Positions 3,395 to 60,240 of a DNA stretch of 64,000 nucleotides are shown piece after piece. The stretch comes from Antedon mediterranea (lineage: Eukaryota; Animalia; Echinodermata), in NCBI RefSeq assembly GCF_964355755.1, contig NC_092673.1, positions 18,101,648 through 18,165,647 of the forward strand, given 5' to 3'. Under the pieces are notes generated by a model. The model was given only the letters and a program-made list of their open reading frames with translations. It searched no databases and was not told where the DNA came from. How positions within the stretch are numbered: the stretch's first letter is position 1; the number at the start of each line of letters is the position of its first letter. The translations under genes were made by a program, and so were the position numbers.

Positions 3395-3865
3395 ATGGAA
3401 AGGTACGTTTTTAACAATTATTTCAAACAAAAATAACCAGCTCCAATATGTGTTGATATTATTGAAATATGCAACTATTAAAAACAAATTAAAATGTTTG
3501 AATAGTTATATTGACATACATATATACATAACATACTTTATGATCAGAATTTATAATTCAAACAAAAAGAAAACACTTTGATTTTAAGATATTCTTTTGA
3601 GAAAAATACTTCAAACTTTCTTAAAAGATTATAAAATCCAAAATTATGAAATCATAAATATTACAATTAAAGGGCTTATTCTCATTAAATATAATATTAA
3701 TAATATTTCCATCAATCATCATTCTCATTAAATACACGGGTATAAATGGATTATTTCTTACATTTTGACAGGAAACATTTGGTAGAAGCTTTGTTAAGGA
3801 ATGATTTGAAAACAATTAAACAAATCTGTAAGACGCAACCAGGTCTTCTGAAATCTATCAATGAG
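3395..3865 (+). CDS. Start exon (ATG GAA AG) plus ankyrin N-cap exon
   Basis: 3395-3402|gtacgt joined to gacag|3772-3865|gtata gives MERKHLVEALLRNDLKTIKQICKTQPGLLKSINE, a helix-helix cap ending in phase 0 before NGDTPLH. An acceptor at 3315 implies an upstream 5'UTR exon. Confidence 0.65.
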
Positions 3866-6800
3866 GTATAAAAACAGATATATTTTTATAATATTATCAA
3901 AGAAGAAATTCTTTTCATTAAAGTTTAAAATTATAGAGGATGTAATTTTATTTAATAGTTTAAAGCTTTTTTACTTAATGAATTACAATTCTTTTGCATT
4001 ATCACACTGATGATGGAGGTATAACCTGCATGTACTGATTAACCACATTAGGCTAAAAATAATAATATAAATACACACTGATGATGGAGGTATAACCTGC
4101 ATGTACTGATTAACCACATTAGGCTAAAAATAATAATATAAATACAAACTGATGATGGAGGTATAACCTGCATATACTGATTAACCACATTATACACACT
4201 GATGATGGAGGTATAACCTGCATGTACTGATTAACCACATTAGGCTAAAAATAATAATATAAATACACACTGATGATGGGGGTATAACCTGCATGCACTG
4301 ATTAACCACATTAGGCTAAAAATAATAATATAAATACACACTGATGATGGAGGTATAACCTGCATGTACTGATTAACCACATTAGGCTAAAAATAATAAT
4401 ATAAATACACACTGATGATGGGGGTATAACCTGCATGTACTGATTAACAACATTAGGCTAAAAATAATAATATAAATACACACTGATGATAGGGGTATAA
4501 CCTGCATGTACTGATTAACCACATTAGACTAAAAATAATAATATAAATACACACTGATGATAGGGGTATAACCTGCATGTACTGATTAACAACATTAGGC
4601 TAAAAATAATAATATAAATACACACTGATGATAGGGGTAAACCTGCATGTACTGATTAACCACATTAGGCTAAAAATAATAATATAAATACACACTGATG
4701 ATGGATGTATAACCTGCATGTACTGATTAACCACATTAGGCTAAAAATAATAATATAAATACACACTGATAATGGGGGTATAACCTGCATGTACTGATTA
4801 ACCACATTAGGCTAAAAATAATAATATAAATACACATTGATGATGGAGGTATAACCTGCATGTACTGATTAACCACATTAGGCTAAAAATAATAATATAA
4901 ATACACACTGATGGGTATGGCAAGCCTCAGCTGTCTGGAGTATTCAAAATATTATATTATTATAATAATGATAATTATGATTTTATCACATTATTTAGCA
5001 GCAATTGTTGTTGTTTGTAAAAAAAAACCAATGTCTGTTGTCAGTATTTATAAACTTCATTATGATTCCTTTCCAGAATGGTGACACTCCATTACATTCA
5101 TATCTGAAGAGTGGTGTATATGCACCTACCTTAGAAATAGTGACTTGTCTCATTCAGCATGGGGCACCAGTAGCATTGCAAAATAAGGTATTGTACAGGG
5201 ATTTGCTAGTGTAATAGGCTAACATTGTATAGATATGCTGTGGTAAACCATTCTATTTTGTTCTACTCATTTATTAATAATGATAATTATGATTATTTAC
5301 CACAATATTTAGCAGCAATTGTTGTTGTTTGTATTGACAAAAAACAAACAATTTCACATAATGTCTGTTGTCAGTATTATACACCAGTAACATTGCAAAA
5401 TAAGGTAATGTACAGGGATTTGCTAGTGTAATAGGCTAACATTCTATAGATATGCTGTGGTAAACCATTCTATTTTGTTCTACTCATTTATTAATAATGA
5501 TAATTATGATTATTTACCACAATATTTAGCAGCAATTGTTGTTGTTTGTATTGACAAAAAACAAACAATTTCACATAATGTCTGTTGTCAGTATTATACA
5601 CCAGTAACATTGCAAAATAAGGTAATGTACAGGGATTTGCTAGTGTAATAGGCTAACATTCTATAGATATGATGTGGTAAACCATTCTATTTTGTTCTAC
5701 TCATTTATTAATAATGATAATTATGATTATTTACCACTTTATTTAGTAGCAATTGTTGTTGTTTGTATTGACAAAAAACAAACAATTTCACATAATGTCT
5801 GTTGTCAGTATTTATAAACTTTATTATGATTCCTTTCCAGAATGGTGACACTCCATTACATTCATATCTGAAGAGTGGTGTATATGCACCTACCTTAGAA
5901 ATAGTGACTTGTCTCATTCAGCATGGGGCACCAGTAGCATTGCAAAATAAGGTAATGTACAGGGATTTGCTAGTGTAATAAGCTAACATTATATAGATCT
6001 GCTGAAGTAAACCATTTAATGAGAGAAAAAAGTAAGCACATTAACAAAAATCAAATTTTATTAAAACAAACCAAATAAAAAAATAACTAAATAGTTATAT
6101 TTGATTTATGATAACTGATTTAAAGTGTACAGTTACCTATCATATAACATAAATCTTTAATTTTCTTAATGAACAAAAAAATCTATTTTATTTTATATAT
6201 TCAGTCATTAATTAACAATTATTGACAATGGTCTAATTAATTGTAAATATGAAATAAAATGCGACAACTACTAAACAACTAAAAATGTTTATGTTAAAAA
6301 AATTAATAGAATCTGATTTTAATAAAAAATAATTATTAATTAATAACCTGCTCCCTCCCTTACCTTAAAAAAATGCTTCTGTCATTCTATCCAGCTAATT
6401 ATAAACATGGCCTTAAACTACATCTGGAGATCCTTTTCCAACCTAGGATCTTTTTGTTCAAACATTTTGCCACAAAATGAAGAGAAATGTACACAATGTT
6501 TTGTTAGTTTTCAAAATCTAAATTGTTTGAGTAATGCAATTTAAAAAGAAAGGTACAGTAATATGAAATTATTCTTTTCAAACTGAATGCTTTTAAGAAA
6601 AGTTCTGTCTCTTTATCTTATGACTTTTTTGGAAATATGATTTCTTGTTAAAATATAATATACTAGTAAGTGCTCACAGATGCTTTTTGAATACATGAAC
6701 TTTGGTAGATAACTGAAAATTGCACTGTACACAAAGCAAATGAATACAGATATGATGGAATTTATGTAGTCAAATATAATTGTCATCCTGAGAATTACCT

Positions 6801-9800
6801 TCATTTTGTTTATTACATGGTATTGTTCACCAAATTCCTGTCTTGGTACATTTGATGATGGGATGGTATCAGGCTTCATGATATGATATGATTTTCATTG
6901 AGGCAAATGGTTTAAACTAAATTTGTTATCGTTAATATCTAACTTAACTTAAATGATATTGGTTTCATTGGGTGTTAAAAATCAGTACTAAAAGGATGTA
7001 CCAACTTTCTCTACCATTGAGTATAAATTCTAGAAGTTGCACTTAATTTACTGAAATTTCCCATTACCTAAATTTATATATAAATTCATTTAACTGCTTA
7101 TTGGTCTCATATTGTTAACATCTAAACATTTGTTTGTACAATTTTATGAAATATGTATTTTATTAATGTTCAAATTTTGTGATTGATATTGTACAGTAAG
7201 TAGATTTTAATGATTACTTACATTAAGTAATAGGCTAACAATCACTAGATCTGAACCATGGTAATATATTATATTTATATTTTGTTTTCATTTATCAATA
7301 ATGATAATTAGGATTTTATCACATTATTTAGCAGTAATTGTTGTTGTTTGTATTTACAAAAAAAACCAATTTCACATAATGTCTGTTGTCAGTATTTATA
7401 AACTTCATGATTATCATTCCTTTCCAGGGTGGTAACACTCCATTACATTCATATCTGAGGAATCGTGGATATACAACAACTATACCTACCTTAGAAATAG
7501 TGACTTGTCTCATTCAGCATGGGGCACCAGTAGCATTGCAAAATAAGGTAAATGTACAGGGATTTGCTAGTGTAATAGGCTAACATTCTATAGATATGCT
7601 GTGGTAAACCATTCTATTTTGTTCTACTCATTTATTAATAATGATAATTATGATTATTTACCACAATATTTAGCAGCAATTGTTGTTGTTTGTATTGAAA
7701 AAAAACAAACAATTTCACATAATGTCTGTTGTCAGTATTTATAAACTTCATGATGATTCATTTCCAGTATGGTGAAACTCTATTACATTCATATCTGGAG
7801 AGTGGATATACACCTACCTTAGAAATAGTGACTTGTCTCATTCAGCATGGGGCACCAGTAGCATTGCAAAAGAAGGTAATGTACAGGGATTTGCTAGTGT
7901 AATAGGCTAACATTCTATAGATATGCTGTGGTAAACCATTCTATTTTGTTCTACTCATTTATTAATAATGATAATTATGATTATTTACCACTTTATTTAG
8001 CATTAATTGTTGTTGTTTGTATTAAAAAAAAACCCAATTTCACATAATGTCTGTTGTCAGTATTTATATAACATGATTTTGATTCCTTTCCAGGATGGTG
8101 ACACTCCATTACATTCATATCTGAGGAGGCAATATAAACCTACCTTAGAAATAGTGACTTGTCTCATTGAGCATGGGTCACCAGTAGCATTGCAAAATAA
8201 GGTAATGTACAGGGATTTGCTAGTATAATAGGCTAACATTCTATAGATCTGCTGAAGTAAACCATTCAATGAGAGAAAAAAGTAAGCACATTAACAAAAA
8301 TCAAATTTTATTAAAAGAAACCTAATTAAAATAATAACTAAACAGTTATATATGATTTATGATAACTAAATCAAATAACATTTATCTTTTTTCTTAATGA
8401 ACAAAAACAATCTACTTGTAATTTGTTATATTCAGGTGAATCAGTATAATTTTGTTTAAATACTTTGTACCATAAAATAAATATATATTGCTCATATGTA
8501 GCTGTAAAGATAACAACAATTGAAAATGGTCTAATTAATTATAAATATGAAATAAAATGAGGCAACTACAGTATGTTCACAAATAATAAAATAGCAAACA
8601 AAAATGTTTGTGTTATTGTTAACAAAATTAATAGAATCTGATTTTAATAAAAAAGAATTAGTAATTGTTAATAACCTTGCTCCCTCCCTTACCTTCCAAA
8701 AAAAATACTTGCGTCAGTATATCCAGCTAATTACAGTTTGAATATGGCCTTAAAGAGATCCTTTTCCAGCATTTTTTTTTTTTGCAAACATTTTGCCACA
8801 AATGGAAGAGAAATGTAAATAATGTTTAGTTTATAGTGGTTTCCAAAATCTAAAAATGTTCGAGCAATGCAATTGGACATTTTTTTATATTCAGGTGAAT
8901 CAGTATAATTTTGTTTACATATTTTTGACCGTAAAACAAATATAAATTGGTCATATGTAGCTGTAAAGATAACAATGATTGACAATGGTCTAATTAATTG
9001 TAAAGATGAAATAAAATAGGACAACTACATTGATTAATAATAAAATAACAAATAAAAAATGCTTATGTCAAAAAAATAATAGAATCTGATTTTAATAAAA
9101 AAATAATTATTAATTAATAACCTGCTCCCTCCCTTGCCTTACAAAAAATGCTTCTGTCAGTCTATCCAGCTAATTATAAACATGACCTTAAAGAGATCCT
9201 TATCCAACCTAGAATATTTTTGTGCAAAAATTTTGCCACAAAAGGAAGAGAAATGTAAATATTTTGTTAGGGCGTGTGTCTATTGAAAAATAAAAAAAGA
9301 ATGGTTTTTTTTGGAAACCGGTTTCGGCAGTTGTTTATAAATAAATATCGCGTTGCAGCTCAATTTTTACTCCAATAAAACCGGTTCCGTCCATGTGCGT
9401 TATGAATGATGTCATTATACACACCACAATGCAGTTCGTTAGGCGGAGGCGCAATTGGATCAAGGTCATGTTTACTTTTCCAAGAATTGCATCCATTTCA
9501 TAGAAGGAGGCAGGTAATCCTGTCATTATTACCTGAAACGTTATTGTGGTCCTTGGTTAAAGTATAGGTAGGCCTACATCACACCCTCCGATATTGTCAA
9601 GTTGAACTCGTCTAGCTTTCACACGCTTTACAATATTCCTAAAAACATGTACGCAAGTCTTTCTTCCGACTCTCGGCAAGTCCCCTCACCGTTTTTTTGT
9701 GGGGACTCATTTCTGCTGGCAAGAAAAAACCGTTCTTAAAAAGAACGGTATTCAAAACCGTATCAATAGAAACAGGCCCTTAGTGGTTTCCAAATTTTAG

Positions 9801-12800
9801 CAGTAATTGTTATTGTTTGTATTGTCAAGAAACAACACAATTTCACATAATGTCTGTTGTCAGTATTTATAAACTTCATGATTATGATTCCTTTCCAGGA
9901 TGTCGACACTCCATTTTTCTCTTTTTACATGTAGCAAGTTGTTTGGATGTAAATATCAAAGTAGTCTACTATTGAACAGTTCCAGCTTTTTTTTTTTTTT
10001 TATTTCATTGGTATTTGAATAATATCCAAATATTATTTGCTGTGACATTTTGGTATTTATATTATTGCTCAAACATTTTAACAAATCTTCCTACTGTTCC
10101 AAAGTAAACTTGTATTCAATTTATCTCTCTCTTCCATCTTTCAATGTTGAAGGCGGTAGACGATAAACGGCAGCGCTCAAGTTTTGATACAGAAGTTATA
10201 GGTGGCGTTTATTTCTATTCACATCCTAATTTACAACCAATGTTAAAAAATAGTATATCTACGTGTTATCATGTGATGCTCTTTCATCCAATCGCTAGAT
10301 GGTAAATGTTTGAGCCATGATATAATACTGTATGTATGTGATGCGTAATTGAAGTGTGTTATATTGTATATCAATAATTTCTCAAAACTACTAATAACTA
10401 AACCCATTTTTTTAATAGGATGGAAATACACCTGTCTCTATTTTAGAAAGTAACAGGCTGATAAGTGACCAAAGAAAAACTGAAATTTTAAACTTCTTAG
10501 AAGGTAAGTGAAGTTTTAATTATTGAAATTTTAGGATCAACTAGTTTCATTGCAAACGATAAAGATTTGATTTCTCATCAAGTGAAGAAGAATGTCCAGA
10601 TAAAGAAAATTAACATTTATGATATATCATTCACAGGTTTATTATAGATTAAATGATTCAGTGGGATAGTAGTATACATGGAAGTTGTGATATGTTGCAA
10701 GATGTAAATTATTTTGCTATTAATACGATAAAAATAACACAAAAACGCACACTTTAAAATTCCTTTGAAATAAAAATATTAAATAAATCATTTTTCAAAT
10801 CAAATCAATCTCTTTATTCAATACATCAAAACAGTACACATAACAAAAATAAAGAGATTTTAATGATGATGATGATGATTTTAAGATGAAAGGGACCTCC
10901 AATAAACCTCAAGGGGCTTGTGATAGGAGGCCCACTTTAAACTAGTTACAATAATCGTATAGACGAATAGGCCATGGATCAACAGGGGATGCGCATTGTT
11001 AAGGAATATTTGAACTTTATTAATTGCACATAAATGTAAATGTAGATTTTTTTTTTTTTAATGTAATCTATTTTATATATAATGCTATTGTACAATTGGT
11101 ATTCGCATTCAAGGCAAACAATTTAAGATAGGAGGAGATAAATATTGAATATAAAAATCCAAATTTCTTGTTAAATCCCATTTTTTGTTTCCACAATGGA
11201 TGAATTTCCTTCACACACTTTAAAGCCAGCTTAAGAATACTATTTCTCTGTATGTAAAATTAAACATCATGCATAATGTATTTTACCTTCACTCCTACAA
11301 TTGTATTATCTTATACCAGGGGTGGATCTAGTCAACTTTATTAATTGCATATAAATGTAAATGTAGATTATATATTTTTTTTTAGATTGTCGATATGGGA
11401 CAAACACATTTTTTTTTTCTTGACGCCCGGAAATAGCATCTGAAGCGTTTTGGCTGGTCGATTCTTGTCATATAATTATCTAAATATATGTTGATATAAA
11501 GTTTGCGGTACACCATGTATATAAGTTTTGAAAAGAACTGTTGAGTTTCTTGATGTTTCGATCAATATTCTTTGATCGTCCTCAGGAGAGAGAATGCAGA
11601 AAGTCCAGGAAACTGGGAATATAAGTGGAATATGATATATAAATATAGTTTGGTTTTAAAGCCTGTTTTCTTGTCGATGCAGCGAGTTTCGTTGATTTGC
11701 GTTGAATTTTTTTTTGTTAAAGTTGAAAAAAATAATAACGATGATCGATCCGGATAGGTAATATTTACACATTTTTACATAATCGCGTTCATAGTTTCTT
11801 GGATCTCGTGAGCGTTGAAGTGACACGCGGATGTGAAGTTTTGCAGAACCAAGACCGTCCACAGCAGCCGTGGTCGAGTGAAAATTGAAAAAGTTACAGG
11901 TTTTGATGCTTCAATCCAGCCTAGGACATGTTTTCACTTATTAATCTAGGCTTTACACTAAAGACACATTAAATTAAATTGTTTTTATATTTTAATTCAC
12001 AAACTGTGATGACATAATTTGTGAACTATTTGATTGGTCAGTTGAAGTTGAATTCAGGTCAATGATTAAAGATTTTAACGTTTTTACCTCATCTTCCTGT
12101 AAAATTGTTGTATGTAAATGGGTGGCGTGTCAATGACATTTAAAAGAATATAAAACCCCCCACACCCCCCCCCCCCCCAATTTTCCCCTGTATATAACTT
12201 CCAAGCAAATTGTAAAGCAATACATAATATTTGAGCAGTTAAATTATTGAAAAATACACACAGAATAATAGAATATTATACAGGTATTGCCTGCTTAGAG
12301 GTTAAATATAAGATTTGACATCCCCGAGGGAATGTTCGAGGGAATATATATTTCCCGAAGCGCTAGTTCTCAAGAACATAATATCATTCCCAAGGGGTTG
12401 TCAAATCATATATTTTACCGATATAAAAGGCGATATCTGTTATATTACATAGCCAACAACAAGTTGAATATCTACTGCTGGGTCGGGGTTAGCTAGGCCT
12501 CCTTTGTAATAAGCCTGACTAGTTAAGTGTTGCATTCACCTTACCTTGCGAAGAATAATATAAAGATAATTACTAATTAATGATTCCTTGGCAATAAAAT
12601 ATTCACTTAGGCCTATGTCGTTTAAATTACCAGAAGAATTTTCATCAATAAGCCTACATTAATGATAATAATATTATTATCAGGTAGGCCGCAAAAATAA
12701 TAATTCGTCTTCTTCGAGGAGCCGAATCACCGGATGTTCAGCGCGCCGTTGTATTGTGATGATGGACAAATCATCGCGAGTTCAAGTCTCAGTAGATGAC

Positions 12801-15800
12801 TTTTGTTTATTTATCGCCAAACGCGAGTGTTGCCACACGAAAATTACACAGTCAATATCATCGTACTCAAGAATTTGCTGGATTTTATATGTTTAATGAC
12901 AGGGACACGATAACTACGCGAAAATTACTCAGTCAATATCATCATACTCGAGGATATATACAATTTATGATCCTCGCAGCGGTAGTCATGTGATGCAGTT
13001 TCAACCAATCACGTGAACGTATTTACATAGGCTAATTAATTTCTTCAAGCAAGTTGCGTAGCGCTGCAGGTAAAACGTTGTCTCGTGATGATGTGGGCTA
13101 ATCTTCGCGAGTTCAAGTCTCAGTAGATGACACGAAAGTTACACAGTCAATATCATGATACTTGAGAATTTTATTTATTTTATTTTTATTTTATTCAGTT
13201 GACAACCAACAGCAATGAAACCGCCACTAACAGGTTGAATCTAAACATGATAAACTATAATAATACTCAAATAAGCAACAATAACATAAACAAAGATTGG
13301 AACATTATAGAGATTGATTTTTAATTAACCTGCAAACAAAAATGTAACTTACTACGCCAATAAGGTTGATGTTTATATGCCACAACTCTACAGATCACAC
13401 ATAGACCGATGTAATGCGAATAATGTATTTTAATAACTGTCAATCACTCAATACAACAACATGGGAATCAAAGCAACAACGAACGAACAACGCCAGCCCA
13501 TGAGGGCGCACTGGCGCTATCTATCAAATCTCCTAAATCCCTTTGAAAATTGACACGGATTTTATATGTTTAATGACAGGGACACGATAATTACTCGAAA
13601 ATTACTCCGTCAATATCATCATACTCGAGGATATATACCATTTACAATCCTTGCAGTGCTACTCATATGATGCAGTTTCAACCAATCACGTTCACGTATT
13701 TACATAGGCTATGTAATATAAATAAATATTTAGCCTTGCCTTGGTGGTACTGTTACTAGTACTAACTAAAAAGGGAACCATACCTGAATGTGAAAGTTGA
13801 CAAACTTTTATAGGCTAAAACCAATCATATAACACTTAAGTCCAATTATGCGCAATTGCAGTTGAGTTTTTACAAGTAGTGTTAAATGCAATTCAACTTC
13901 AGTGGAAATAGAATGTACTGCACTTAAGTCAAATGTATTGCACTTAAGTCAAATGTATTATACTTAGTTGAATACAATTGTACTTCAATGCAATGTATTG
14001 TATCAAGGTAAATTCAAGGTATTTGTCTTAAGTTTAACTTGGAGGTAACTGATAAAATTGCTTGCCATAGCAGTGATGCTTCATCTTTGGTTCGCATATT
14101 GTTATACTGAATTCTATGTGTATAATGTTAATATATGTTGTGAATTTTCAATTATGTATACAGTTCAAATATGAGTGGGATATTCTTGTTTTTGTATACT
14201 GGTCCCCCTTCCACAATACTTGACCCCTCTCAAATTTAGCATTAGATGCGCCCCTGCTTCAATAGGATCAAATCCCCCTTGTCATTCCCCCTCTCCAATG
14301 ATCTGTGTCATGAATATTTAAAAGTGTTGCCAAGCTGACGTGACTTTTTATATAGTTCTTTTATTTTAAAAATTATATGTAATTGTTTTGTTTTTGGTAA
14401 TTTTTCAGATTTACCAAGTCCTGTTAGTGATCAATTTGAGAAACTAAAGGTTGAAAAACAGAATGGTGAGTTTAAGAATCATCATCAGAATTTACTTTTC
14501 ATTGAATTATAAAGTATTCTACTATCCTTCTAAACAGGACTGTCTGTATGTCAACCAATGCATATCTGTAGATACCTTGGCTTACTACTAGTAACAATTT
14601 CTCTCTGAAAGTTCATTTATTGGGCATCAGACATTTGCAAACACTAAGTAACTAATTGATAATATAATAATGTTGATTAAAAATCCAAAAAATCCAATAT
14701 GCAAAAAAAATAAATAAACAAAGCAGAAACTGTTGGCCTACACTGTAGCTATCCACAGAATAATAGAGTATTTCAAAAAAGAGTTTGAGGGGAAAAAGTG
14801 CTTAATCAATTCAATTTCTTTTATTTCATTCTTAAATTTCATCCATACCAACAAACGTACAAACAGAAAAAAGAAAATTTGCAAACTCTAAGCTTAAATA
14901 TATATGATATTTCTCCATCTACAATACATATGTTTGCAAACACAAGCAACAAGAATTTTACAACTATATTCAACATACATTGCATGAAACCTTAGATAGA
15001 TTTTAGCATATACTCATTAAGGGAAAGGACACTATGTTCAATAAACATCATACTGATGGCACTACTGATTCTAGAGACATTCAGTATATGGCGCAGAGCA
15101 TTATTTTAGCATACATTAAGAGATCTAAATGTCTTAGATGGTCACACCAAAGGGCAGCATAATAAAGATTAATACAATAAGATCTAAAGAGGCAACATAA
15201 CATTATATTAGTAATTTGCGATTGAGTGAACCCCACCCTGTCTAACTCCATTAGATACTGTAAATGGAATATATATGTTGTACAGGAGAGGGGACATAAC
15301 CCCACCCTGTCTAACTACATTAGATACTGTAAATGGAATATATATGTTGTACAGGAGAGGGGACATAACCCCACCCTGTCTAACTACATTAGATACTGTA
15401 AATGGAATATATATGTTGTACAGGAGAGGGGACATAACCCCACCCTGTCTAACTCCATTGGATACTGTGGATTGGAAACAGAGTTACCCCAATGTATCAC
15501 AAAACTTTGTTTCTCATACCAACATTTGAGCAATTTAACAATACAAAGATTCATACCATTGTTAATGAGCTTACTATGAAGAGTCCACATTGATTGACTT
15601 GATCAAAAGCCTTACTGGCATCTAGAGAGCAGGCAAAAACTGGGCTACCATTTCTATTGTAGTAGTCAATGACATGTTTTAATACAAAGATACAAGTATC
15701 AGTCGAGTGTTTTGCTTTAAATGCAAATTGGTAGTCGCTGGATTCAAGTGAGTTACCACAGTGACTGATCAAAATAAATTAAAAAAACTTAGATAATACA

Positions 15801-18800
15801 GAAGCTAAAGCATAGGGGTATAGTTGTTGTTATTAGTAATATCACCTGATTTACTCTTAACAATCGGCACTAATAACTAGAATAACACATGACCATGACA
15901 CAGCATATCATTAAAGCATATACTCAATAAGATATTAACCCTTTAAAGACATGGCTCGCATCCCATACGGGGTAATTTACTGTCCCAGGACATGCAATCA
16001 GGCGCAGGATTGGTTAAAGCAAATAACAGAATAGGCAAATTGATTGGTTTTTTCATTGGAAAGCAGCAAATAAGCCTATCCTACAACACTGCCAAAAGCA
16101 GTCCCACTGTCCATTTGACCAATCCTGCGCTTGTTTTAAGACATGGGGCCCGTATATGTACGGGTTGACTTTTTGGGGTCACTAAATTGCACTTTTTGAG
16201 CATTTGACCTTTGAACTAGGCAAAACAAAAATTTTTGGAAGGCTAAAACATTTCACATAATAAATCCAACAATTGCAGAAAGTTACAGCCATAAAAATGG
16301 ATTTTTGCATTTTTCCTAAACCTATTAAAAATACCTTATTTATTAGCCTCTGTCACTTGTGGTAGAAACCTTGCGTCTTCAAATGGTTAAGTCCTTTACT
16401 AGCATATTTAATGTGTGCACAATAATAATTTATTATTATACTGTATGACACACACATCAATGTAAACAATTAACCATTACAGTGTGTTACATGCATGAAT
16501 GCAGATGTAGAAAATGTGTAATGGAATAATAGGAATAAAGATTGTATGAAATTGTGTGTTAATCCTGGAAAGTTCAATTTCAATTTCAATATTATAACAT
16601 AAAAAACATAAAACTATAGTTTGTTAATAAATATAATTCCATAAAAATACAATGAAAAGTAGTTCAGTCATGTGAAGAGAGTAATGTAAGTCGAAGATAT
16701 AACATTAAAAATACAAAAAAGAAGAAAAAATACATGAACTAATAGTATATTTAAAAAAAAACAAAGCTACAATTTCTATTTAAACCACTTTATCCGATCT
16801 TAACTGGTATATTTAACGTTCATCATATCTAGAAAGTAAAAGACAAAACATTAATTTAAAAACACAGTGTAAATATCTATAATAGAATGAGTATTGTATT
16901 GTTCATATAATTATGAATAAGCTGGTGTGGTGTTGATACACAGCAGAAACTGGCTATTCTATAAATATAACCATTGAGAAGTAATTTCTTCATGATATAA
17001 ATAAACACATGTGTATGATAAATCAGGTTGAAATAAAATAATTTGCATTGTGTAATGAAGACAATTGTGACAATGGCTATTTATCAAATACCATTAAGTA
17101 ATATCTTACATTAGATTTTTATTTTTCAGATCAAATTATGGAAGTAATTGTGGGATTTGCTGGTGAAACACTTCATCTTAAGGATGAAGACATCAAGTTG
17201 GAGATACATTCTGAAGCAATTGAAGGGGAAACAGTTAAAGTATCGCTAGAAAATTTTTCTGAGGAAACAGGCATGCCTGTACTTCATTCTCATGAATCAA
17301 TAATATCACCTATTGTTAAATGTGGACCAGAAGGCACCAGCTTCAAAAAGCCCATTTCATTGTCATTTCCACACGATGCTGTAAATGAAGAGAATTGGAA
17401 ATTCACTCTACTTGTTAAAGATCGCATTCAAGATGAATGGAAACGTGATGAAAAGGACATACAGTTTACTTTAAAAAACGGTCGATGTTGTATAACATTA
17501 ATTCATTTCAGTTTTTATGCACTAATTGGTCATATAAGAAATTTCTTTGGTAAGAAAAGAATGTTGTTAGGAGTTTTTGGAAAGATGCTTGCAAATGATG
17601 AATATCAACTTCAAACAAGACTTTTTAAGCCGTCAGATAAACAGGTAATTACTATTTGTTGTTAAACTGTATTTAAATAAAGTAGTTCTTAATTTACTTA
17701 CATTAACAAATATTTTCAAAATATAGATATAATAAATAGTTGCTTTGTCATATTTGGTCAATAACATTAACCTAGAGTAGTTAATTTGGCATAATATTTA
17801 TTCTCTTATTTTTATATCTATATATAAATTTACGTAAGGGCAAAAATCGGTAAATCGCGCGTTATTTCTAGAATGTTTACTCGATGGTATATACAGTTGG
17901 TTAGAATCTCGGTACTCATTTTAACCACCTGATGTAACCCTGTTTACTAATTAAATTGAGTTAGATAATTAGTTATTGACAATTAAAACAAATTTAGGTT
18001 CAACGATTTGCCCCAAATAGGGGTGTTTTCTGATCGTGGCATACACTGTCTAATGGATGTCAATTTGAAAAATACCCGCATACGATAATACAAGGACACT
18101 TCGCATTTTCCTATCTCCTCCTACGATAATTGTTTTTAATAGCTGAAAACCGGTTGAACAGTTCGAGTACAGTATCATAATGTTAAAGACAGGCCGATTT
18201 TCCTTAAAAAATGCTATTTTGATAGATTTAATATAGGTTTATATAAATGTATTGATTTGCGATGAATGGAACATTCCAATCTCTGTTCTACAAGTGTCTA
18301 TTCCCTCAGGCGTCGTAACGGCAAATACTGTATACTCATAACAGAAATTCGATCAATTTTTTTTTCAATCTGTGCTGCAGAGGTTGGATATAGATTTTTT
18401 TAACGGATAATGAGCTAGCGTTTTCAGTCGCCGTATATTATGTACAGATCTTTATTATTGCAGTTAAACCACCCCGGGAACCACCCACATCATCACCCTT
18501 CCCTCACTGGCATGAGTAGCGTTGTTGTAAAGCCAGTAGAGGATAGGCCTACGGTGGTACGAAGGATCAACAACAACTTTGGTGGGTAGGGTAGGAACCA
18601 ACTTAAGTATGAATTGGCTCTAGAAACAATTGAAAACCATTAGGCCTACTAATTAAGTTGAGTTAGATAATTTAATATTTATTAACGATTAAATCAAATT
18701 TATGATTTGCCCCGAATAGAGGTGGTTTTCACAAATTGTTTAACATTATATAAACATATATACGTCGTAGTGATGTATCGTTACATGTACTGTACTATTT

Positions 18801-39800: not shown

Positions 39801-42800
39801 CAATGTGATCTTAAATGGGACATTCAAGTTAATGAATGTGTTTCTAAAGCATCTAAACGACTTTTTACCCTTTCCATTCTTAGGAAAGCTTTGGCCCCAG
39901 CTAACGACCTGTTAACTGTTTTTACTACGTACATACGTCCAGTTTTGGAATATGCGTGTCCCTTGTGGCATAGCTCATTAACCAATATCCAATGTACTAG
40001 AATTGAAAGGGTACAAAAGAGAGCTCTAAGATGTATTTACGGTGCTAATTACATCAGTTATGAAAATGCTTTATCCATGTCTGGATTATGTTCCCTTAAA
40101 ACCAGAAGAGATAACTTGATGATGAAATTTGGGAAGGAGATACTACTCTCTAAACTCTATCGTGATATGCTTCCCCCTTATCATAACCGCGGTCGCAATT
40201 TGAGAAATTTTAATTTGTTGTGTCCAACGCTCTACCATCCCTAACATTATTGATAGAATGAATGAAGCTTCTAAAACTAAAACTTTGTAGGTTTATAACA
40301 TTAATAATAATTACCGCATGTTTTGGTTTATCTGGGTCTTTTGGCATTTTAAATTTTAAATATTTTTAACGGCTTTTTAATGATCTTATTTTCTGTGTAC
40401 TTGTATATATTATATTGTTGTTAGAGTCTTTTAAATTTTTTACTTTGTACGTTGTTTGCAGAATTTTTCAGCCGTTGACTGCCTTCTGTTTGTACTATTT
40501 ATGTGTTTTTTATGAATAAATACCTATATATATCTTATGTCTTAAGCTGGCCTTTAATATACTGTTCAACATATACTAACAATAACTGTCTTTTCTGGAT
40601 GTTTTTATTGAACAGAAGTGACAAAGCAATTTCCATCGGATTCATCAGATACTCTTAGTGATGAATTTCAAACACAAGTAGTGGAACAGGAAACTAAACC
40701 TGAACCAGAGAGTGGTGAGTGTCATAAAATATTAGTTGTGTTATTATGGTTAAAATAACTTTAAATGTAGAATGGATTTTAGCTACATTTTTTTTTTATT
40801 TCAACATTTATAAAAAAAAGAATGTCTTTAAACAGATTTAGAAAAAAATACTAAATTCATACATTTAAACGATTGATAAGGTAAATGACTTATTTAACTA
40901 ATCTTTAAAACAACATGTCTTTTATTATTAGTCAAGAATAAAAGCTGATACACTGAACAATATCTGCATAAATACTGTCATGATATTTATATATAAGTTG
41001 CTGTGACACTTACAGGCCACCGTACTTTGATCACACAAACAAAACATATTCATTATGGTCGGCAATGTATTATCAACAAACTTAAAAATAAGAGATAGTT
41101 CTCTATCCAATGTAAATAGAACAGTTTATATTTCATCAAAGAACATATTGTTATTGTTAATCTTATTTTGATATGCTTGCTCTATAAATTCAACAACAGA
41201 TTAATTATGATTGATCAAAGTTCTCTGTGAAGCTGTCAACATCTTTGAAAATAGGCTTCTGGGCTCAACTTACTAAGTATTTGCTGCCCCATATATCTGG
41301 GAAAATTGGCCGTTGGTAGAGACAAAATTTGAAATTTACTTTGTTATTTATAAAGTCGCAAATTAGCATGCAACATACAAATACATTGCAAAATAATAAC
41401 AAATTGATATTAATTACGGTAATAATCAAATTAGGGTGTGTTACATTGTATAGGTCTATGGTACAGGGCTCAGGTGGCAGGCCTTTACTTTACTTGCCAA
41501 CTAATGTTTATTTTTTTCTTATATAAATTTTCTGGTTTTTTATTGTAATAACCTAATGCTATTTTTTGTAATATATTAATAAACCATAAATCAATAAAAA
41601 AAAATGAGGTTCTGCACAGTAAATGAAGATGATAATGGATGAAAATGTATTAGAAATTTATGTTATTGTGGTTGATTGTGTTGAGTAATGAATAATCAAA
41701 TGCTGTTGCTTGTGATATTTAATTCTTAATACTAATACTCATTTCAGATCTGCAGTCGCCAGAAAATGACAGGTAAGTAGTACTGTATAATGAGTGTATC
41801 ACAGTATCTATACTGTTTATTTATACTCTCCAATACCATAGAGATAGACCAACACCCTGCTAGTTAATTGTTTGCCCTGAGATGATAGTCTGGAAGGGAT
41901 ATTATTACTATCACTTGTGTGTCTATCAGTTCAGTTGTATACTAATAACATAACCTGTTAATACAACCATAAAGTTCAACCATAGAAATAGTGTTGAAAC
42001 AATTATACACAAAATCAAGAATAACAAACATCAAAAGAACTTTTAAACCCAACAACCAAGTTATAATAATAATGAAACAATCCTGGTTTTATATAGAATT
42101 ACATTCTGCATAAGCTTAACGGAGGATGACGGACCTTTTGTCCTACCAATATTTTTAATTTCAGTAAGATATATGCCACACTTCCGTTTTGGCCGACAGA
42201 CTCCCATATTTATACTTGTCTCCTTATGCTCCTGGTTTTATATTCTCCCGTATTACAAAGATAACTGAACTTTGATGTATATGTGTTGCTTTCTGCAATA
42301 AAATATAAAAAAAAAAAGCTAAAAAAACATACAAATTTATGATATTTAAGTCATAATTTATTGATCACCTTATTGAAGGGGATTCTTTTCACATAGTCAT
42401 TATGGTACCAATTGCTCCTTGCATTTCCTGATTTTGATAATAATACTGTAAAAAAGGGAGTGGGGATGGGTTGCTAGAACCATAAAACCCTCCTGCTTAC
42501 GAGTCTGTTATCCTTATTATAGGGAGTGGGGAGGGTTTGCTAAAACTATAAAACCCTCCTGCTTACGAGTCTGTTATCTTTATTATAGGTTTACTAATGT
42601 GTACATATACATTTTTATTTCTAGCCTGAAAGAAAGCATACAGACATTTGTCAAAGGTAATTTCCTTAGTCTTATGTTGAAACCGAATAAAATCAAATCA
42701 AGTCATGAGTCTTAAAAAATTGAAATGAGGCAAATCAAAGAAATGTATTTTTTTCACTTTTATAGCTATAAACAAAATAATTAAGTTCCAACAAATATAA

Positions 42801-43000
42801 AAGTTGTAATTGTAGATTTTGATTTTCAAATTTAATAAACGCAAAAAAAATAATAATAAAACTGTAAAATCTTGAAAGCTCACACAAAAATTAAAGGTGT
42901 TTAAATCAATTATTTTTTTTCCCTTTTTCTTTCAGAGAACTGTGGCTTGATAATTTGTTGTATTGTAGCTGTAGTATTGGCATATAAGCATTGGAAATAG
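3395..43000 (+). CDS. Multi-exon gene: ankyrin repeats - ZU5/UPA - tandem DED - linker - HEPN (DZIP3-like)/coiled coil - linker - C-terminal TM; about 1253 aa if all 29 exons are used
   Basis: Exons with ag/gt borders and compatible phases: 3395-3402, 3772-3865, 5077-5187, 5841-5951, 7428-7547, 7768-7875, 8094-8201, 10419-10503, 14409-14465, 17130-17644, 19439-19573, 20139-20280, 20725-20754, 21736-22251, 23261-23305, 24387-24449, 24873-24986, 25202-25300, 26332-26356, 27728-27759, 31607-31651, 34464-35165, 37840-37902, 38508-38624, 38826-38921, 40616-40714, 41748-41772, 42625-42656, 42936-43000. The sum is 3762 nt with an open frame to TAG. No transcript evidence. Confidence 0.8.
4004..4912. 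repeat. About 71-bp intronic minisatellite, roughly 13 copies
   Basis: acactgatgatggaggtataacctgcatgtactgattaaccacattaggctaaaaataataatataaatac units. Confidence 0.95.
5077..5187 (+). CDS. Ankyrin repeat exon 1 (37 aa, phase 0-0)
   Basis: ttccag|NGDTPLHSYLKSGVYAPTLEIVTCLIQHGAPVALQNK|gta; GxTPLH...EIV..L...GA ankyrin consensus. Confidence 0.9.
5841..5951 (+). CDS. Ankyrin repeat exon 2 (identical to exon 1)
   Basis: Same 111 nt as 5077-5187, with ttccag/gtaatg borders. Confidence 0.88.
7428..7547 (+). CDS. Ankyrin repeat exon 3 (40 aa)
   Basis: GGNTPLHSYLRNRGYTTTIPTLEIVTCLIQHGAPVALQNK, phase 0-0. Confidence 0.9.
7768..7875 (+). CDS. Ankyrin repeat exon 4 (36 aa)
   Basis: YGETLLHSYLESGYTPTLEIVTCLIQHGAPVALQKK, phase 0-0; not in the ORF track. 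Confidence 0.88.
8094..8201 (+). CDS. Ankyrin repeat exon 5 (36 aa)
   Basis: DGDTPLHSYLRRQYKPTLEIVTCLIEHGSPVALQNK, phase 0-0. Confidence 0.9.
9270..9779. mobile_element. PIF/Harbinger-like MITE
   Basis: TIRs gggcgtgtgtctattga / tcaatagaaacaggccc; TTA TSD at 9267-9269 and 9780-9782. Confidence 0.75.
9899..9915 (+). pseudogene. Truncated ankyrin exon remnant
   Basis: The conserved upstream intron and ttccag acceptor are followed by GAT GTC GAC ACT CCA (DVDTP); homology then stops and a TAG follows. Confidence 0.75.
10419..10503 (+). CDS. Ankyrin C-cap exon (phase 0-1)
   Basis: tttaatag|DGNTPVSILESNRLISDQRKTEILNFLE+G|gtaagt. Confidence 0.8.
14409..14465 (+). CDS. Linker exon (phase 1-1)
   Basis: tttttcag|(D)LPSPVSDQFEKLKVEKQN|gtgagt. 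Confidence 0.7.
14960..16420 (-). mobile_element. Degenerate non-LTR retrotransposon RT fragment with an internal 69-bp triplication
   Basis: YQFAFKAKHSTDTC...LDASKAFDQVN and NGVRQGGVMSPLLYNIY RT motifs; stops and frameshifts; 69-bp unit repeated at about 15229-15470. Confidence 0.85.
15939..16386. mobile_element. piggyBac-type MITE inserted in the LINE fragment
   Basis: TTAA|ccctttaaagac ... gtcttcaaatgg|TTAA; removing it rejoins the RT frame (HIKYASKGL/NILLSICFN on the minus strand). Confidence 0.75.
17130..17644 (+). CDS. ZU5 domain exon with HFS motif
   Basis: VGFAGETLHL...ISPIVKCGPEGTSFKKPISLSFPH...LIHFSFYALIG matches the ZU5 consensus of UNC5/PIDD/UNC5CL. Confidence 0.88.
17817..19274 (+). 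mobile_element. Non-autonomous Helitron, copy 1
   Basis: A|TCTATATATAAATTTACG ... hairpin ... CATCTAG|T; second copy at 28477. Confidence 0.85.
19439..20280 (+). CDS. Two UPA-like domain exons (19439-19573, 20139-20280)
   Basis: TIKEEHSEIGEKPLITPVDILSMYMDMNITVAVSEQEWKVHEKKK / TVTAEYLWRGTPLKNFLLKRGNSSAKVLKATVSLSQ...; beta-rich, directly after ZU5, phases fit. Confidence 0.7.
20896..20994 (-). pseudogene. 5S rRNA-derived sequence (pseudogene or SINE3 head)
   Basis: Reverse complement tacggccttatcatgttgaaacactggttttcttgtctgatcaccaaagttgagcaacg...cttggatgggagaccgtctggga resembles metazoan 5S including box A and box C; the 3' end diverges. Confidence 0.8.
21736..22251 (+). CDS. Tandem death-effector-domain (DED-DED)-like exon (phase 1-1)
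   Basis: FNKLNYDLSE...DYFNELSEKGYIKPTDVGLLLNI...VVAQY followed by LSPYRKRLCKALREF...IWDVAFELERKNKL, resembling caspase-8/cFLIP prodomain repeats. Confidence 0.7.
22545..23167. mobile_element. Kolobok-like MITE
   Basis: TTAA|agacaccttccctaca ... tgtagggaaggtgtct|TTAA; empty site with a single TTAA in the paralogous intron at 31511. Confidence 0.85.
23261..27759 (+). CDS. Linker exon block copy 1 (six small S/T/E/Q-rich exons)
   Basis: 23261-23305, 24387-24449, 24873-24986, 25202-25300, 26332-26356, 27728-27759; canonical borders, frame kept, conserved in copy 2. Confidence 0.75.
24550..24777. repeat. 36-bp minisatellite, about 6 copies
   Basis: aaaatgtatagttatgttactctccaaaatgaacat units. 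Confidence 0.92.
27051..27690. repeat. About 65-bp minisatellite, roughly 10 copies
   Basis: gggagtggggaggg(g/t)ttgctagaaccataaaaccctcctgcttacgagtctgttatccttattata units. Confidence 0.92.
27771..28342. repeat. About 88-bp tandem repeat, 6-7 copies
   Basis: aatcattattgataatctatacattgttacaacatgctgctattagctgtgatatcttcattcctcttaccagtagtagtactatcag units. Confidence 0.92.
28380..30330 (+). mobile_element. CR1/L2-like LINE endonuclease fragment, interrupted by a Helitron
   Basis: IDPDQNF, HFNARSL, IYRAP, ILGDFNIDIL, SLIDNI and SGLLYSDIS are AP-endonuclease motifs. Confidence 0.75.
28477..29616 (+). mobile_element. Non-autonomous Helitron, copy 2, inside a LINE fragment
   Basis: Same TC/CTAG termini and subterminal hairpin; internal deletion relative to copy 1. 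Confidence 0.85.
30690..31483 (-). mobile_element. Helentron-associated (HINE/DINE-1-like) element with GACA/GACC microsatellites
   Basis: agtcgcg subterminal repeats, terminal palindrome gagtcgcttccacgcgact and tetranucleotide microsatellites; absent from the paralogous site near 22510. Confidence 0.65.
31607..42656 (+). CDS. Linker exon block copy 2 (seven small exons flanking the HEPN exon)
   Basis: 31607-31651, 37840-37902, 38508-38624, 38826-38921, 40616-40714, 41748-41772, 42625-42656; paralogous to copy 1. Confidence 0.75.
33208..33882 (+). mobile_element. HINE/DINE-1-like element
   Basis: 5' ttacctccgcc and 3' ggcggaggta subterminal inverted repeat, followed by a hairpin and ctagtt. 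Confidence 0.75.
34464..35165 (+). CDS. DZIP3/hRUL138-like HEPN domain plus coiled-coil exon (702 nt, phase 1-1)
   Basis: NYFRICCLL..EGTKAMR.FF...Q..LLFP......EDFDMTLL.ILI.NLC...DLRIFRNDQAH...ISQHDF...W..LS.IL; RxxxxH at 34811-34828; C-terminal heptad-like K/E/L run. Confidence 0.85.
35650..36462 (-). mobile_element. RTE-clade LINE endonuclease fragment
   Basis: GDFNAKVG, IGNFGSGHRNDRGE, NTFFKK...RWTWRSPDG..KNEIDLIL, SDHR. Confidence 0.85.
39140..40525 (+). mobile_element. 5'-truncated CR1/L2-like LINE (RT plus 3'UTR)
   Basis: ORF 39159-40244 with DFTKAFDRVDH, GVPQGTKLGP and a mutated YVND catalytic motif; AT-rich 3'UTR ending in aataaa. Confidence 0.9.
42936..43000 (+). CDS. Terminal exon encoding a tail-anchor transmembrane helix
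   Basis: Long pyrimidine tract, then ttcag|(E)NCGLIICCIVAVVLAYKHWK*. Confidence 0.8.
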
Positions 43001-51494: not shown

Positions 51495-52586
51495 GGGTGT
51501 CACGAAAGCTCAGACCACGAAAGCTCAGACCCCCTAAGACCTAAGATCACGAAAGCTAAGACCCAACACCTAAGATTACAAATATTTATCTTTCGCACCT
51601 GCCTTGTATTTTAACTCCCAACAATTATTCTGAATACCACACCTTAGAATTGGCACTTTCATGAAAAAGAATCACATAAAAAGTAACAAATACATTTTTA
51701 AATTAAAGATTTTACAGACGTTTTTCTCGCACACAAAATGACTAGCCTACAGGACAGTAGGCCTACCCCATGGGCCATGTTCAATGTTTTTGTTTCTATG
51801 GAACGTCAAAAGAGCAAAAATTATATAGAGGGCTGAAAACTCTGTGGAGTCCATCTACAGTGTGGATGGAACAATGTAAAATTAAAATTGTAATGATAAT
51901 AGTATAATCATGCAAGTACGAAGAAATAAATACTGGCAAATAAATTTTAATTTAAAAATCATGATAAGTTTTTTTGTTTCGTTTTCTTTCTGTTTTTATA
52001 CTTGTACTATTATTGTTGCTCTTTTGGCGCTCCATAGAAACAAAAACATTGAGCATGGGGGGGCCGAGCTCGAGGAGTTACATTGTCATTACAGTATACA
52101 AAGAAACACATCTGTAAAATCATCAATTTAAAGGATTTATTTATTTGTTATTATGTGTTTCTCCTTCTGAAAGTACTTATAAGTCCTAATTTTAAAGTGT
52201 GGTGTTCAGGATAAAGTTAGTCAACAAATTTGGAGTCAAAATACAAGAAAGGCAGGTGCGTAAGAAAAACATCCTCTGAAGCAACACAATGGAGTAAATA
52301 TATACCAACAAACAACCCGTCAAGTTTGTTTGTTGTAAAGAAAAAATATACATTTACTCAACGGGCGAAAATAATGTGAGTTTATCTATGTTTTGCGGTA
52401 GTATTAAATTATATTTATGGTAATAAATGAAACCTACTGTGTTTAAAATTATGTATGGATAAACAAGTATTGTTTTTAAGCTGTAGTATATCTTAGTATT
52501 TGTAATCTTAGGTGTTGGGTCTTAGCTTTCGTGATCTTAGGTCTTAGGGGGTCTGAGCTTTCGTGGTCTGAGCTTTCGTGACACCC
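51495..52586. mobile_element. Foldback/MULE-like MITE, copy 1
   Basis: TIRs of about 90 bp (gggtgtcacgaaagctcagacc...); 10-bp TSD taaaatgcac. Confidence 0.85.
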
Positions 52587-55355: not shown

Positions 55356-55800
55356 ATGGAATCCACACTGGCAAACTTCCCGAACTTCAAAATACGAAAT
55401 TCCGGCGACGATGCGCAAGAATTCGAAAAATACGCAGGCCGACTCGAAAATTTTTCCACGGCTATGAACATCCGGGACGACAAGAGGAAGAGAGCACTGT
55501 TGCTTCACTATGCAGGTGAGAAGGTATACGATATTTTTGGAACTTTGCAGGCAATATTTATGATGAGGCCAAACTAGCAATGAAAAACTACTTTGAGCCC
55601 AAGAAGAATATTCCATTCGCCATCTACACCTTCCGTCAGTTAAGCCAAAATGCCAGCGAGTCGATTGACGACTACGTCACACGCTTACGTCATGCTGCTA
55701 GGACATGCTCGTTTGCGGACGTTGATGGTGAAATAAAAATGCAAATAATATCTCACTGTTGCTCGCCAAAGCTTAGACGTGCGGCTCAACGAGATCCTAC
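55356..55800 (+). pseudogene. gag: Gypsy gag, frameshifted and interrupted
   Basis: KRALLLHYAGEKVYDIF...YTFRQLSQNASESIDDYVTRLR. Confidence 0.85.
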
Positions 55801-57090: not shown

Positions 57091-57110
57091 CCAAAAGGGC
57101 AGTTAATGCT

Positions 57111-60100: not shown

Positions 60101-60240
60101 ATCTGCCAAATAGGGCACATGTAAATCCAAAACCGGTTTATAATGATGATACTGTTGTAGTGGGACAAGATCCGATCCCACAACAGACACGCAGATCTTG
60201 TAGACAAGCAAGACGGCCTCAAAGGCTAGTTGAGGAATAA
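57111..60240 (+). pseudogene. pol: Gypsy pol (PR-RT-RH-IN), split by frameshifts
   Basis: LIDSGS protease; ISDDII RT; DAS...EREAL...TDHKPL RNase H; HEGHQG...C..C and SDNG...GEVE integrase. Confidence 0.93.

What the first reader, a model, noticed from the sequence alone, without database searches (positions are those of the whole stretch)
3395..43000. Candidate novel immune/cell-death receptor: variable ankyrin sensor - ZU5/UPA - DED-DED - HEPN RNase - tail anchor
Seen: 29 exons join in frame into one chain of about 1253 aa with this domain order. Known: a repeat sensor plus self-cleaving ZU5/UPA plus death fold is the PIDD1 and NLRP1/CARD8 logic. Ankyrins plus a HEPN-derived RNase recall RNase L, and a death fold plus disordered linker plus C-terminal TM recalls MAVS. 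Inference: the protein combines a diversifying ligand sensor, an autoprocessing switch, a caspase-recruiting module and a putative RNase on an organelle membrane. I do not recognise this architecture from any characterised protein.
Basis: partly seen in the sequence, partly recalled or inferred. Interest (0 to 1): 0.92.

Follow-up and report, generated by a model that had tools for sequence, protein, structure and literature searches.

The report
Exon-shuffled feather star death receptor
A real, partly spliced gene of a feather star strings together ankyrin repeats, a ZU5-UPA module with an intact self-cleavage motif, a caspase-8-like double death domain, a HEPN domain with an intact RNase motif and a tail helix; it is likely a young exon-shuffled immune or cell-death protein, but one full-length product is not proven.

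Summary
The 29 exons are there and read as one 1253-aa frame. Domains hold: ankyrin repeats, ZU5 with HF|S, a tandem DED (model pLDDT 95.7; caspase-8 tDED Z 14.9), DZIP3-type HEPN with RNxxxH, a C-terminal hydrophobic helix. UPA is supported only through a relative. One public run holds spliced contigs: 5 of the 28 junctions are listed, a sixth is implied, and contig ends suggest the HEPN exon is spliced on both sides. But no ankyrin junction was displayed, and that run's DED contig carries an extra 72-nt exon plus unspliced intron with stops, so ZU5-to-DED read-through is not shown. All 36 relatives with a name are crinoids; they shuffle the same DED pair with NACHT, Roc-COR, kinase, caspase and ZU5-UPA; none of 78 has ankyrin or HEPN. 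The linker is a duplicated block with HEPN inserted in one copy. Corals have published HEPN+ZU5+UPA+Death proteins. Verdict: new variant of a known kind (marine-invertebrate domain-shuffled death-fold proteins); full chain about 45%; mechanism inferred.

The parts
3395..3865 (+). Exons 1-2 (3395-3402, 3772-3865): start codon and likely ankyrin N-cap
   Evidence: no Pfam hit for exon 2; cap role inferred
5077..8201 (+). Five one-repeat ankyrin exons, phase 0-0 (5077-5187, 5841-5951, 7428-7547, 7768-7875, 8094-8201); first two identical
   Evidence: Pfam Ank; 13 changes among 4 distinct repeats, 0 synonymous
10419..14465 (+). Exon 8 (10419-10503, likely ankyrin C-cap) and exon 9 (14409-14465, spacer)
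   Evidence: exon 9 is matched upstream of ZU5 in relative P0012; junctions not displayed
17130..17644 (+). Exon 10: ZU5 domain and start of UPA; HF|S motif at 17504-17512 (aa 393-395)
   Evidence: Pfam ZU5 E 3.6e-16; motif; spliced joint to exon 11 in X1
19439..20754 (+). Exons 11-13 (19439-19573, 20139-20280, 20725-20754): rest of UPA and spacer
   Evidence: joint 11>12 in X1; UPA via relative P0013, 51% identical
21295..21366 (+).
   Evidence: donor used in X1 contig; frame and branch-point-like CTAAT; acceptor inferred
21736..22251 (+). Exon 14: tandem DED, phase 1-1
   Evidence: AlphaFold pLDDT 95.7; caspase-8 tDED Z 14.9, rmsd 2.6, 152 aligned; Foldseek TMq 0.69-0.70
23261..27759 (+). 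Linker copy A, exons 15-20 (acidic, Q/S/T-rich); no TM exon follows this copy
   Evidence: joints 16>17, 17>18, 18>19 in X1 (paralogous copies could give them)
31607..31651 (+). Exon 21, paralogue of exon 15 (43 of 45 nt)
34464..35165 (+). Exon 22: DZIP3-type HEPN plus predicted coiled coil, phase 1-1; Ex3K at aa 883-887, RNDQAH at aa 971-976 (34811-34828)
   Evidence: Pfam PF18738; ESM Atlas 0.93 to HEPN_DZIP3 clusters; X1 contigs stop near both exon ends
37840..42656 (+). Linker copy B, exons 23-28 (37840-37902, 38508-38624, 38826-38921, 40616-40714, 41748-41772, 42625-42656)
   Evidence: exon 25>26 join implied in X1 (table 5c)
42936..43000 (+). Exon 29: hydrophobic helix with 4 residues after it (predicted tail anchor) and stop; AATAAA at 43282
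   Evidence: same end in relative P0025

Best explanation
This is a spliced crinoid gene built from duplicated and inserted exon modules that likely encodes a tail-anchored, self-cleaving immune or cell-death switch. Shown: exon structure, domain folds and motifs, the duplication, partial splicing. Inferred mechanism: ZU5 would cut itself at HF|S (F394/S395), leaving the ankyrin-ZU5 piece clamped on a membrane-bound UPA-tDED-HEPN-tail piece; binding of a foreign or damage ligand to the variable ankyrin face (or its destruction) would free UPA-tDED to oligomerise on the membrane, which would recruit a DED caspase and bring HEPN domains together to cut RNA. Inferred origin: unequal recombination of phase-1 exon modules within a crinoid expansion of tandem-DED genes.
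For: One frame with strong splice sites. Spliced GT..AG contigs at 5 model junctions, all 5 GT..AG joints displayed matching the model. HEPN contigs in X1 end at 34476 and 35164 with 11 and 29 unaligned letters while DNA-like runs run on into the introns. F followed by S/T/C at the cleavage position in 9 of 9 ZU5 copies of 8 relatives, where UNC5B has no such residue; PIDD cleaves at HF/S (PMC3210808). tDED fold; a crinoid tDED-caspase with His/Cys motifs exists (P0074). HEPN Rx4H with polar N and Ex3K intact, the defining RNase motifs. Ankyrin: 0 of 13 changes synonymous (P 0.03), 9 of 13 in 4 codons. ZU5-UPA-tDED-TM (P0013) and tDED-linker-TM (P0025, 123 of 131 residues identical to copy A plus tail) exist in Antedon mediterranea.
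Against: In X1 the only displayed DED contig runs upstream through unspliced 20820-21294, which has stops in all frames; full retention would end the protein at aa 545. An X1 contig also runs unspliced from intron 7 into exon 8 (10092-10431). No ankyrin junction, nor 8>9, 9>10, 12>13 or 13>14, is among the 15 of 59 joints displayed. X1 differs from the window at 9 of 138 nt in exon 11, so joints may come from a paralogue or diverged allele. None of 78 relatives carries ankyrin or HEPN, so nothing conserved backs the full architecture. No activity was measured; the ankyrin test rests on 13 changes.
Confidence: 0.4

Rival explanations
1. The locus makes two or three products: an (ankyrin-)ZU5-UPA protein ending in intron 13 and a separate tDED-linker-HEPN-TM protein from a start inside intron 13; the ankyrin exons may be their own small gene.
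For: X1 contig 20820-21363 joined to the DED exon, ending at 20820; X1 contig from intron 7 into exon 8; stand-alone tDED-linker-TM (P0025) and ZU5-UPA genes in A. mediterranea; reading through the exon 8 donor gives a stop at once.
Against: No stop, no terminal exon needed anywhere in 1253 codons; the putative leader holds 14 ATGs, none in frame with the DED, and the first in-frame Met lies inside DED helix 1; ZU5-UPA-tDED is contiguous in P0011, P0012, P0013. Retained weak introns are common in assemblies holding pre-mRNA (general knowledge), and X1 covers introns at low depth.
Confidence: 0.3
2. A recent chimera drifting in a fast-turnover gene cluster: transcribed and mostly in frame because the modules are phase-symmetric, but without a selected function as a whole.
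For: Two identical ankyrin exons, broken ankyrin and DED exon remnants, LINE pieces around the HEPN exon, a 2-kb block 98% identical between copies; no orthologue with this order among 78 relatives.
Against: All catalytic and cleavage motifs intact; no stop or frameshift in 29 exons; HEPN exon present in both samples laid, and the X1 length difference there is 9 nt; ankyrin changes are non-random.
Confidence: 0.15
3. A membrane-anchored decoy or scaffold: the tDED damps caspase-8-like assemblies as cFLIP or viral FLIPs do, and HEPN binds rather than cuts RNA.
For: cFLIP and vFLIP tDEDs score close to caspase-8 (Z 11.6-13.0 vs 14.9); no protease domain in the chain.
Against: HEPN catalytic motif complete; UPA directly before a death fold is the activating layout in CARD8/NLRP1 (abstracts).
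Confidence: 0.1
4. The duplicated linker or the HEPN placement is an assembly error.
For: One block of the two copies is 98% identical over 2065 nt; no listed contig spans the whole stretch.
Against: The 5' parts of the copies are only 78-89% identical; copy-A and copy-B junction types both appear in X1; contigs of other runs bridge intron to HEPN exon on both sides.
Confidence: 0.05

Closest known systems
Marine-invertebrate expansions of DED(+TRADD-N) proteins with variable modules (Kaur et al. 2021, PMC8195603; section 11, passages, supplement 4 searched)
   Same: Lineage-specific expansion around a DED core with swapped HEPN, ankyrin, ZU5-UPA, PARP14/Macro, STAND, ubiquitin modules; coral HEPN+TRADDN+ZU5+ZU5+UPA+Death and HEPN+TRADDN+Ankyrin+ZU5+ZU5 listed.
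   Different: Here the core is a tandem DED with no TRADD-N seen, HEPN lies C-terminal, and there is a tail helix; 'UPA+DED', 'DED+HEPN' and 'HEPN+TM' had 0 hits in that (cut) file. Intron-bounded phase-1 modules point to DNA-level exon shuffling rather than the retro-insertion proposed there.
PIDD1 / UNC5CL (ZU5-UPA-death fold with HF|S)
   Same: Repeat sensor, ZU5 with HF|S, UPA, death fold in that order.
   Different: Ankyrin instead of LRR, one ZU5, tDED instead of DD, plus HEPN and a C-terminal anchor.
NLRP1 / CARD8
   Same: Predicted autoprocessing that leaves UPA plus death fold as the active piece.
   Different: No FIIND or CARD or NACHT hit; motif is HF|S, not SF|S.
DZIP3/hRUL138-like HEPN proteins of animals (PMC3710099, passages)
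   Same: Pfam family and Rx4H motif; family already listed fused to ankyrin, CARD, DEATH, NACHT.
   Different: Fusion to ZU5-UPA-tDED and a tail anchor is not in that table row; no close relative of this HEPN was found.
Ankyrin-1/2/3 (Ank-ZU5-ZU5-UPA-DD; layout recalled, cluster row)
   Same: Order ankyrin repeats, ZU5, UPA, death fold.
   Different: Five young repeats, one ZU5 nearer to UNC5B than to ankyrins (E 2.9e-15 vs 0.016 for relative P0013), tDED: convergent, not an orthologue.
RNase L and MAVS
   Same: Ankyrin sensor plus HEPN-superfamily RNase; death fold, disordered linker and tail helix.
   Different: No kinase-like domain, HEPN is DZIP3-type not KEN; no CARD; location unknown.

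Membership tests
ZU5-UPA-death-fold autoprocessing proteins (PIDD1/UNC5CL type) | ZU5 domain | tested here: met
   Pfam PF00791 E 3.6e-16
ZU5-UPA-death-fold autoprocessing proteins (PIDD1/UNC5CL type) | HF|S cleavage motif at the end of ZU5 | tested here: met
   aa 393-395; F+S/T/C in 9 of 9 related ZU5 copies
ZU5-UPA-death-fold autoprocessing proteins (PIDD1/UNC5CL type) | UPA after ZU5 | tested here: inconclusive
   Only via P0013 (51% identical): Pfam UPA 23.1 bits, under the cut-off 27; UNC5B ZU5-UPA match; Atlas structure rows name UPA. The spliced window segment was not scanned.
ZU5-UPA-death-fold autoprocessing proteins (PIDD1/UNC5CL type) | Actual self-cleavage | not testable with these tools
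   needs expression
PIDD1 orthologues | LRR sensor, two ZU5, C-terminal DD | tested here: not met
   Ankyrin repeats, one ZU5, tDED
NLRP1/CARD8 | FIIND with SF|S and a CARD | tested here: not met
   ZU5 not FIIND hit; HFS; best folds are DEDs, CARDs rank far lower
Tandem DED (caspase-8/cFLIP type) | Two packed DED bundles | tested here: met
   pLDDT 95.7; Z 14.9, rmsd 2.6, 152 aligned, model 7-171; 41 of 62 new relatives have a Pfam DED hit at E<=1e-3
Tandem DED (caspase-8/cFLIP type) | Binds a DED caspase | not testable with these tools
   needs a binding assay; see Tried and rejected for the one complex job
DZIP3/hRUL138-like HEPN | Profile match above cut-off | tested here: met
   49.4 bits vs 27, profile 2-131 of 144; Atlas 0.93
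DZIP3/hRUL138-like HEPN | Rx4-6H with polar residue after R, and Ex3[KR] | tested here: met
   RNDQAH aa 971-976, EEGTK aa 883-887
DZIP3/hRUL138-like HEPN | HEPN fold | tested here: inconclusive
   single-sequence model pLDDT 44.8, not searched
DZIP3/hRUL138-like HEPN | RNase activity | not testable with these tools
   needs assay
RNase L | Kinase-like domain and KEN-type RNase | tested here: not met
   no kinase-sized gap in the model, HEPN is PF18738
MAVS | N-terminal CARD | tested here: not met
MAVS | Mitochondrial tail anchor | not testable with these tools
   hydrophobic tail present; target membrane unknown
Canonical ankyrins | About 24 repeats, two ZU5, DD (recalled) | tested here: not met
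   five repeats, one ZU5, tDED
DED-TRADD-N expansions (PMC8195603) | TRADD-N domain | tested here: inconclusive
   no such hit in the exons scanned with Pfam; no dedicated profile run

The most novel reading that the evidence does not exclude
Feather stars assemble single-chain, membrane-anchored sensor-switch-effector receptors by ongoing shuffling of phase-1 exons around a tandem DED; this one couples an ankyrin array diversified like a natural DARPin library to a PIDD-type self-cleavage switch and uses DED oligomerisation to turn on a HEPN RNase and a caspase at once, an RNase-L-plus-inflammasome in one polypeptide.
Probability: 0.25. Interest if true: 0.8.

Novelty: new variant of a known kind. 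Interest (0 to 1): 0.55.

Why it matters
Invertebrate HEPN and ZU5 immune fusions are known only as predictions. This locus shows the building process in the DNA (duplicated linker, inserted phase-1 HEPN exon, ankyrin exons multiplied and changed only at amino-acid level) and offers a compact test of two open ideas: that invertebrate ZU5 domains autoprocess, and that death-fold clustering switches on DZIP3-type HEPN RNases. It also exposes a crinoid tandem-DED expansion (66 clusters at 50% identity) that my literature searches did not find described.

Tried and rejected
No whole genome is held, so paralogues in this species could not be counted. No run is on record as RNA; X1 was a guess and was judged to hold RNA from its GT..AG joints; depths were not used to rank parts. 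Both read layings are spent; 3395-7000 and 27001-28399 were never laid, and only 15 of 59 and 15 of 347 joints were displayed, so missing junctions are not evidence of absence. HEPN relatives: none among longer proteins (0 of 800 candidates), none in PDB sequences, none in metagenome contigs. No homology search was run with the ankyrin part against a large database (caps spent); only against 84 fetched proteins, 0 hits. HEPN single-sequence fold failed. Complex prediction of the DED exon with the crinoid caspase P0074 prodomain: no answer, score 0.00, alignment not used; no evidence either way. Foldseek gave no match at E<=0.001 though all top rows were tDEDs. Earlier scan notes: nothing. Literature searches for this architecture found no description; subscription papers, one unsearched supplement file and the cut part of supplement 4 of PMC8195603 may bear on that. 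Rejected: membership of RNase L, MAVS, NLRP1/CARD8, PIDD1 and canonical ankyrin families.
Full report
Observation. The window is AT-rich animal DNA with introns and repeats. From the sequence I rebuilt 29 exons between 3395 and 43000; all 28 introns are GT..AG and the joined frame is 1253 aa with one stop. 25 of 28 donors have G|GTR against 10% of background GT sites.

Organism and family. Proteins found with the DED exon (7 of 423 candidates) and the ZU5 exon (9 of 213) are all named Antedon mediterranea, mostly at 50-77% identity. A full HMMER scan with the DED exon gave 66 clusters; of 20 proteins looked up (18 new from that scan plus P0012, P0013), 18 are A. mediterranea and 2 Anneissia japonica. 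The window is thus from an Antedon-like feather star; I did not determine the species. Among the 62 new proteins, 41 have a Pfam DED hit, 11 NACHT, 3 Roc/COR, 3 kinase, 3 MAM, 2 NHL, and one each caspase, ubiquitin, very large GTPase and TPR-STAND; none has ankyrin or HEPN, nor do the first 16. Relatives include ZU5-UPA-tDED (P0012), the same with a C-terminal hydrophobic helix (P0013), Roc-COR-tDED-ZU5-UPA-tDED (P0011), DED-PARP14 (P0007) and P0025, a different tDED joined to a linker and tail that are 123 of 131 residues identical to this gene's copy A plus last exon, without HEPN. So modules move between paralogues in this lineage.

Domains. Ankyrin: three of four repeat exons scanned pass the Pfam cut-off. 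Among the four distinct repeats, 13 nucleotide changes in 32 aligned codons are all non-synonymous (P 0.03 under neutrality), 9 fall in four codons, and the inter-helix loop varies in length. These codons correspond to repeat positions 3, 5, 13 and 14, the ones randomised in DARPins (position numbers recalled; that hairpins and the concave face bind targets is from passages of PMC8229355). The sample is small. ZU5: strong Pfam hit with HFS at aa 393-395; all 9 ZU5 copies in 8 relatives keep F followed by S, T or C, the nucleophiles of N-O/N-S autoproteolysis, and PIDD cleaves at HF/S (passages of PMC3210808); UNC5B lacks it in the alignment. UPA is supported only through P0013. tDED: no direct Pfam hit, but a 31-sequence alignment gives a model of pLDDT 95.7 whose best matches among 48,161 chains are caspase-8 tDED (Z 14.9, rmsd 2.6, 152 aligned), FADD/caspase-8/cFLIP assemblies and vFLIPs (Foldseek agrees at E 1.5e-3 and weaker; profile search E 0.007). 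HEPN: PF18738 above cut-off, Atlas look-alikes in molluscan HEPN_DZIP3 clusters, with RNDQAH and EEGTK matching the Rx4-6H and Ex3[KR] motifs (passages of PMC3710099). Tail: 17 hydrophobic residues followed by four.

How the locus was built. Exons 15-20 recur as 21, 23, 24, 26, 27, 28; the 5' parts of the two copies are 78-89% identical, a 2065-nt block 98%. Copy A lacks the tail exon, a remnant of the DED exon's 3' end sits near 30345-30370, and the HEPN exon lies only in copy B, between the paralogues of exons 15 and 16, beside LINE fragments and a repeated piece of the intron. ZU5-UPA, tDED, HEPN and most linker units start and end in phase 1; ankyrin exons are phase 0-0. Unequal recombination of symmetric modules is the inferred cause.

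Transcription. Five runs hold the stretch, none on record as RNA. All four laid cover introns, but X1 also has spliced contigs: of 15 joints displayed (59 in all) 5 are GT..AG and all 5 are model junctions (10>11, 11>12, 16>17, 17>18, 18>19), and another carries the end of exon 25 joined to an exon-18/26-type start. X1's HEPN contigs stop at 34476 and 35164 with 11 and 29 unaligned letters, and a separate intron contig ends 29 nt inside the exon, whereas contigs of X2, X3 and X5 run on into the introns; I infer splicing at both ends, partners not shown. Against the single chain: the X1 DED contig joins 20820-21363 to the DED exon. Its donor (21366) defines an in-frame 72-nt micro-exon from 21295 (1277 aa in all), but 20820-21294 is unspliced and has stops in all frames; retention from exon 13 would stop the protein at aa 545. 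A second contig runs unspliced from intron 7 into exon 8. No ankyrin junction is displayed. X1 is another sample with 9 differences in exon 11, so paralogues or alleles may contribute. I put DED-HEPN-tail in one protein at about 0.7 and the whole chain at about 0.45.

Mechanism (inferred). Self-cleavage would leave ankyrin-ZU5 bound to a membrane-anchored UPA-tDED-HEPN piece; a ligand or removal of the N-terminal piece would let UPA-tDED cluster, as UPA-CARD does in CARD8/NLRP1 (abstracts), recruiting a DED caspase such as P0074, which keeps His and Cys motifs, and pairing HEPN domains (that HEPN RNases work as dimers is recalled). None of these steps was shown.

Comparison and novelty. DZIP3-type HEPN is already listed fused to ankyrin, CARD, DEATH and NACHT (PMC3710099) and is the commonest NACHT partner in many anthozoans (passages of PMC8260672; PMC10236652). 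PMC8195603 (passages, section 11, supplement searches) describes marine expansions of DED/TRADD-N proteins with variable HEPN, ankyrin and UPA-ZU5 parts, including coral HEPN+TRADDN+ZU5+ZU5+UPA+Death. Amphioxus hybrid immune genes made by domain shuffling were confirmed by cDNA (passages of PMC2575513). The exact order here, the tail anchor and the crinoid tDED expansion were not found in my searches (listings only unless named above). Verdict: real locus, new variant of a known kind, interest 0.55.

Noticed in passing
proteins P0001-P0078: A large crinoid family built around one kind of tandem DED with very varied partners (NACHT-LRR, Roc-COR, TRIM/NHL, kinase, MAM, very large GTPase, caspase, PARP14); many named members lie on one 36.2-Mb A. 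mediterranea contig. May be of more general interest than this one gene.
   Followed up: partly
window 20880-20996 (-): Degenerate 5S rRNA copy (35.8 bits, under the gathering score 38) inside the part of intron 13 that X1 keeps unspliced.
   Followed up: partly
window 34811-34836: Contigs of X1, X3 and X5 all begin at 34813, inside the codon of the catalytic Arg; a variant or branch next to the HEPN motif is possible but unresolved. One X1 HEPN contig is 9 nt longer than the window.
   Followed up: no
window 10092-10431: X1 contig runs unspliced from intron 7 into exon 8 with 12 differences and a 37-nt replacement; alternative 5' end, retained intron or paralogue.
   Followed up: no
window 5165-5812 and 9899-9990: Two acceptor-less 3' pieces of the ankyrin exon in a 217-bp tandem repeat, and a decayed ankyrin exon with stops; exons 3 and 4 are identical over 111 nt.
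   Followed up: partly
window 39105-40241 (+), 29905-30408 (+), 36007-36528 (-): LINE fragments in introns: reverse transcriptase (E 1.5e-19) and endonuclease pieces.
   Followed up: partly
window 55148-60545 (+): LTR retrotransposon, order protease-RT-RNase H-integrase, pol split over three frames, LTRs of about 180 nt 92% alike, set in an 89-bp satellite array.
   Followed up: partly
window 51494-52586 and 61316-62395: 1.09-kb inverted repeat, 98% identical, around the satellite and LTR element.
   Followed up: no
window 19439-19573: The four displayed X1 differences in exon 11 (UPA) all change the amino acid; five more were not displayed.
   Followed up: partly
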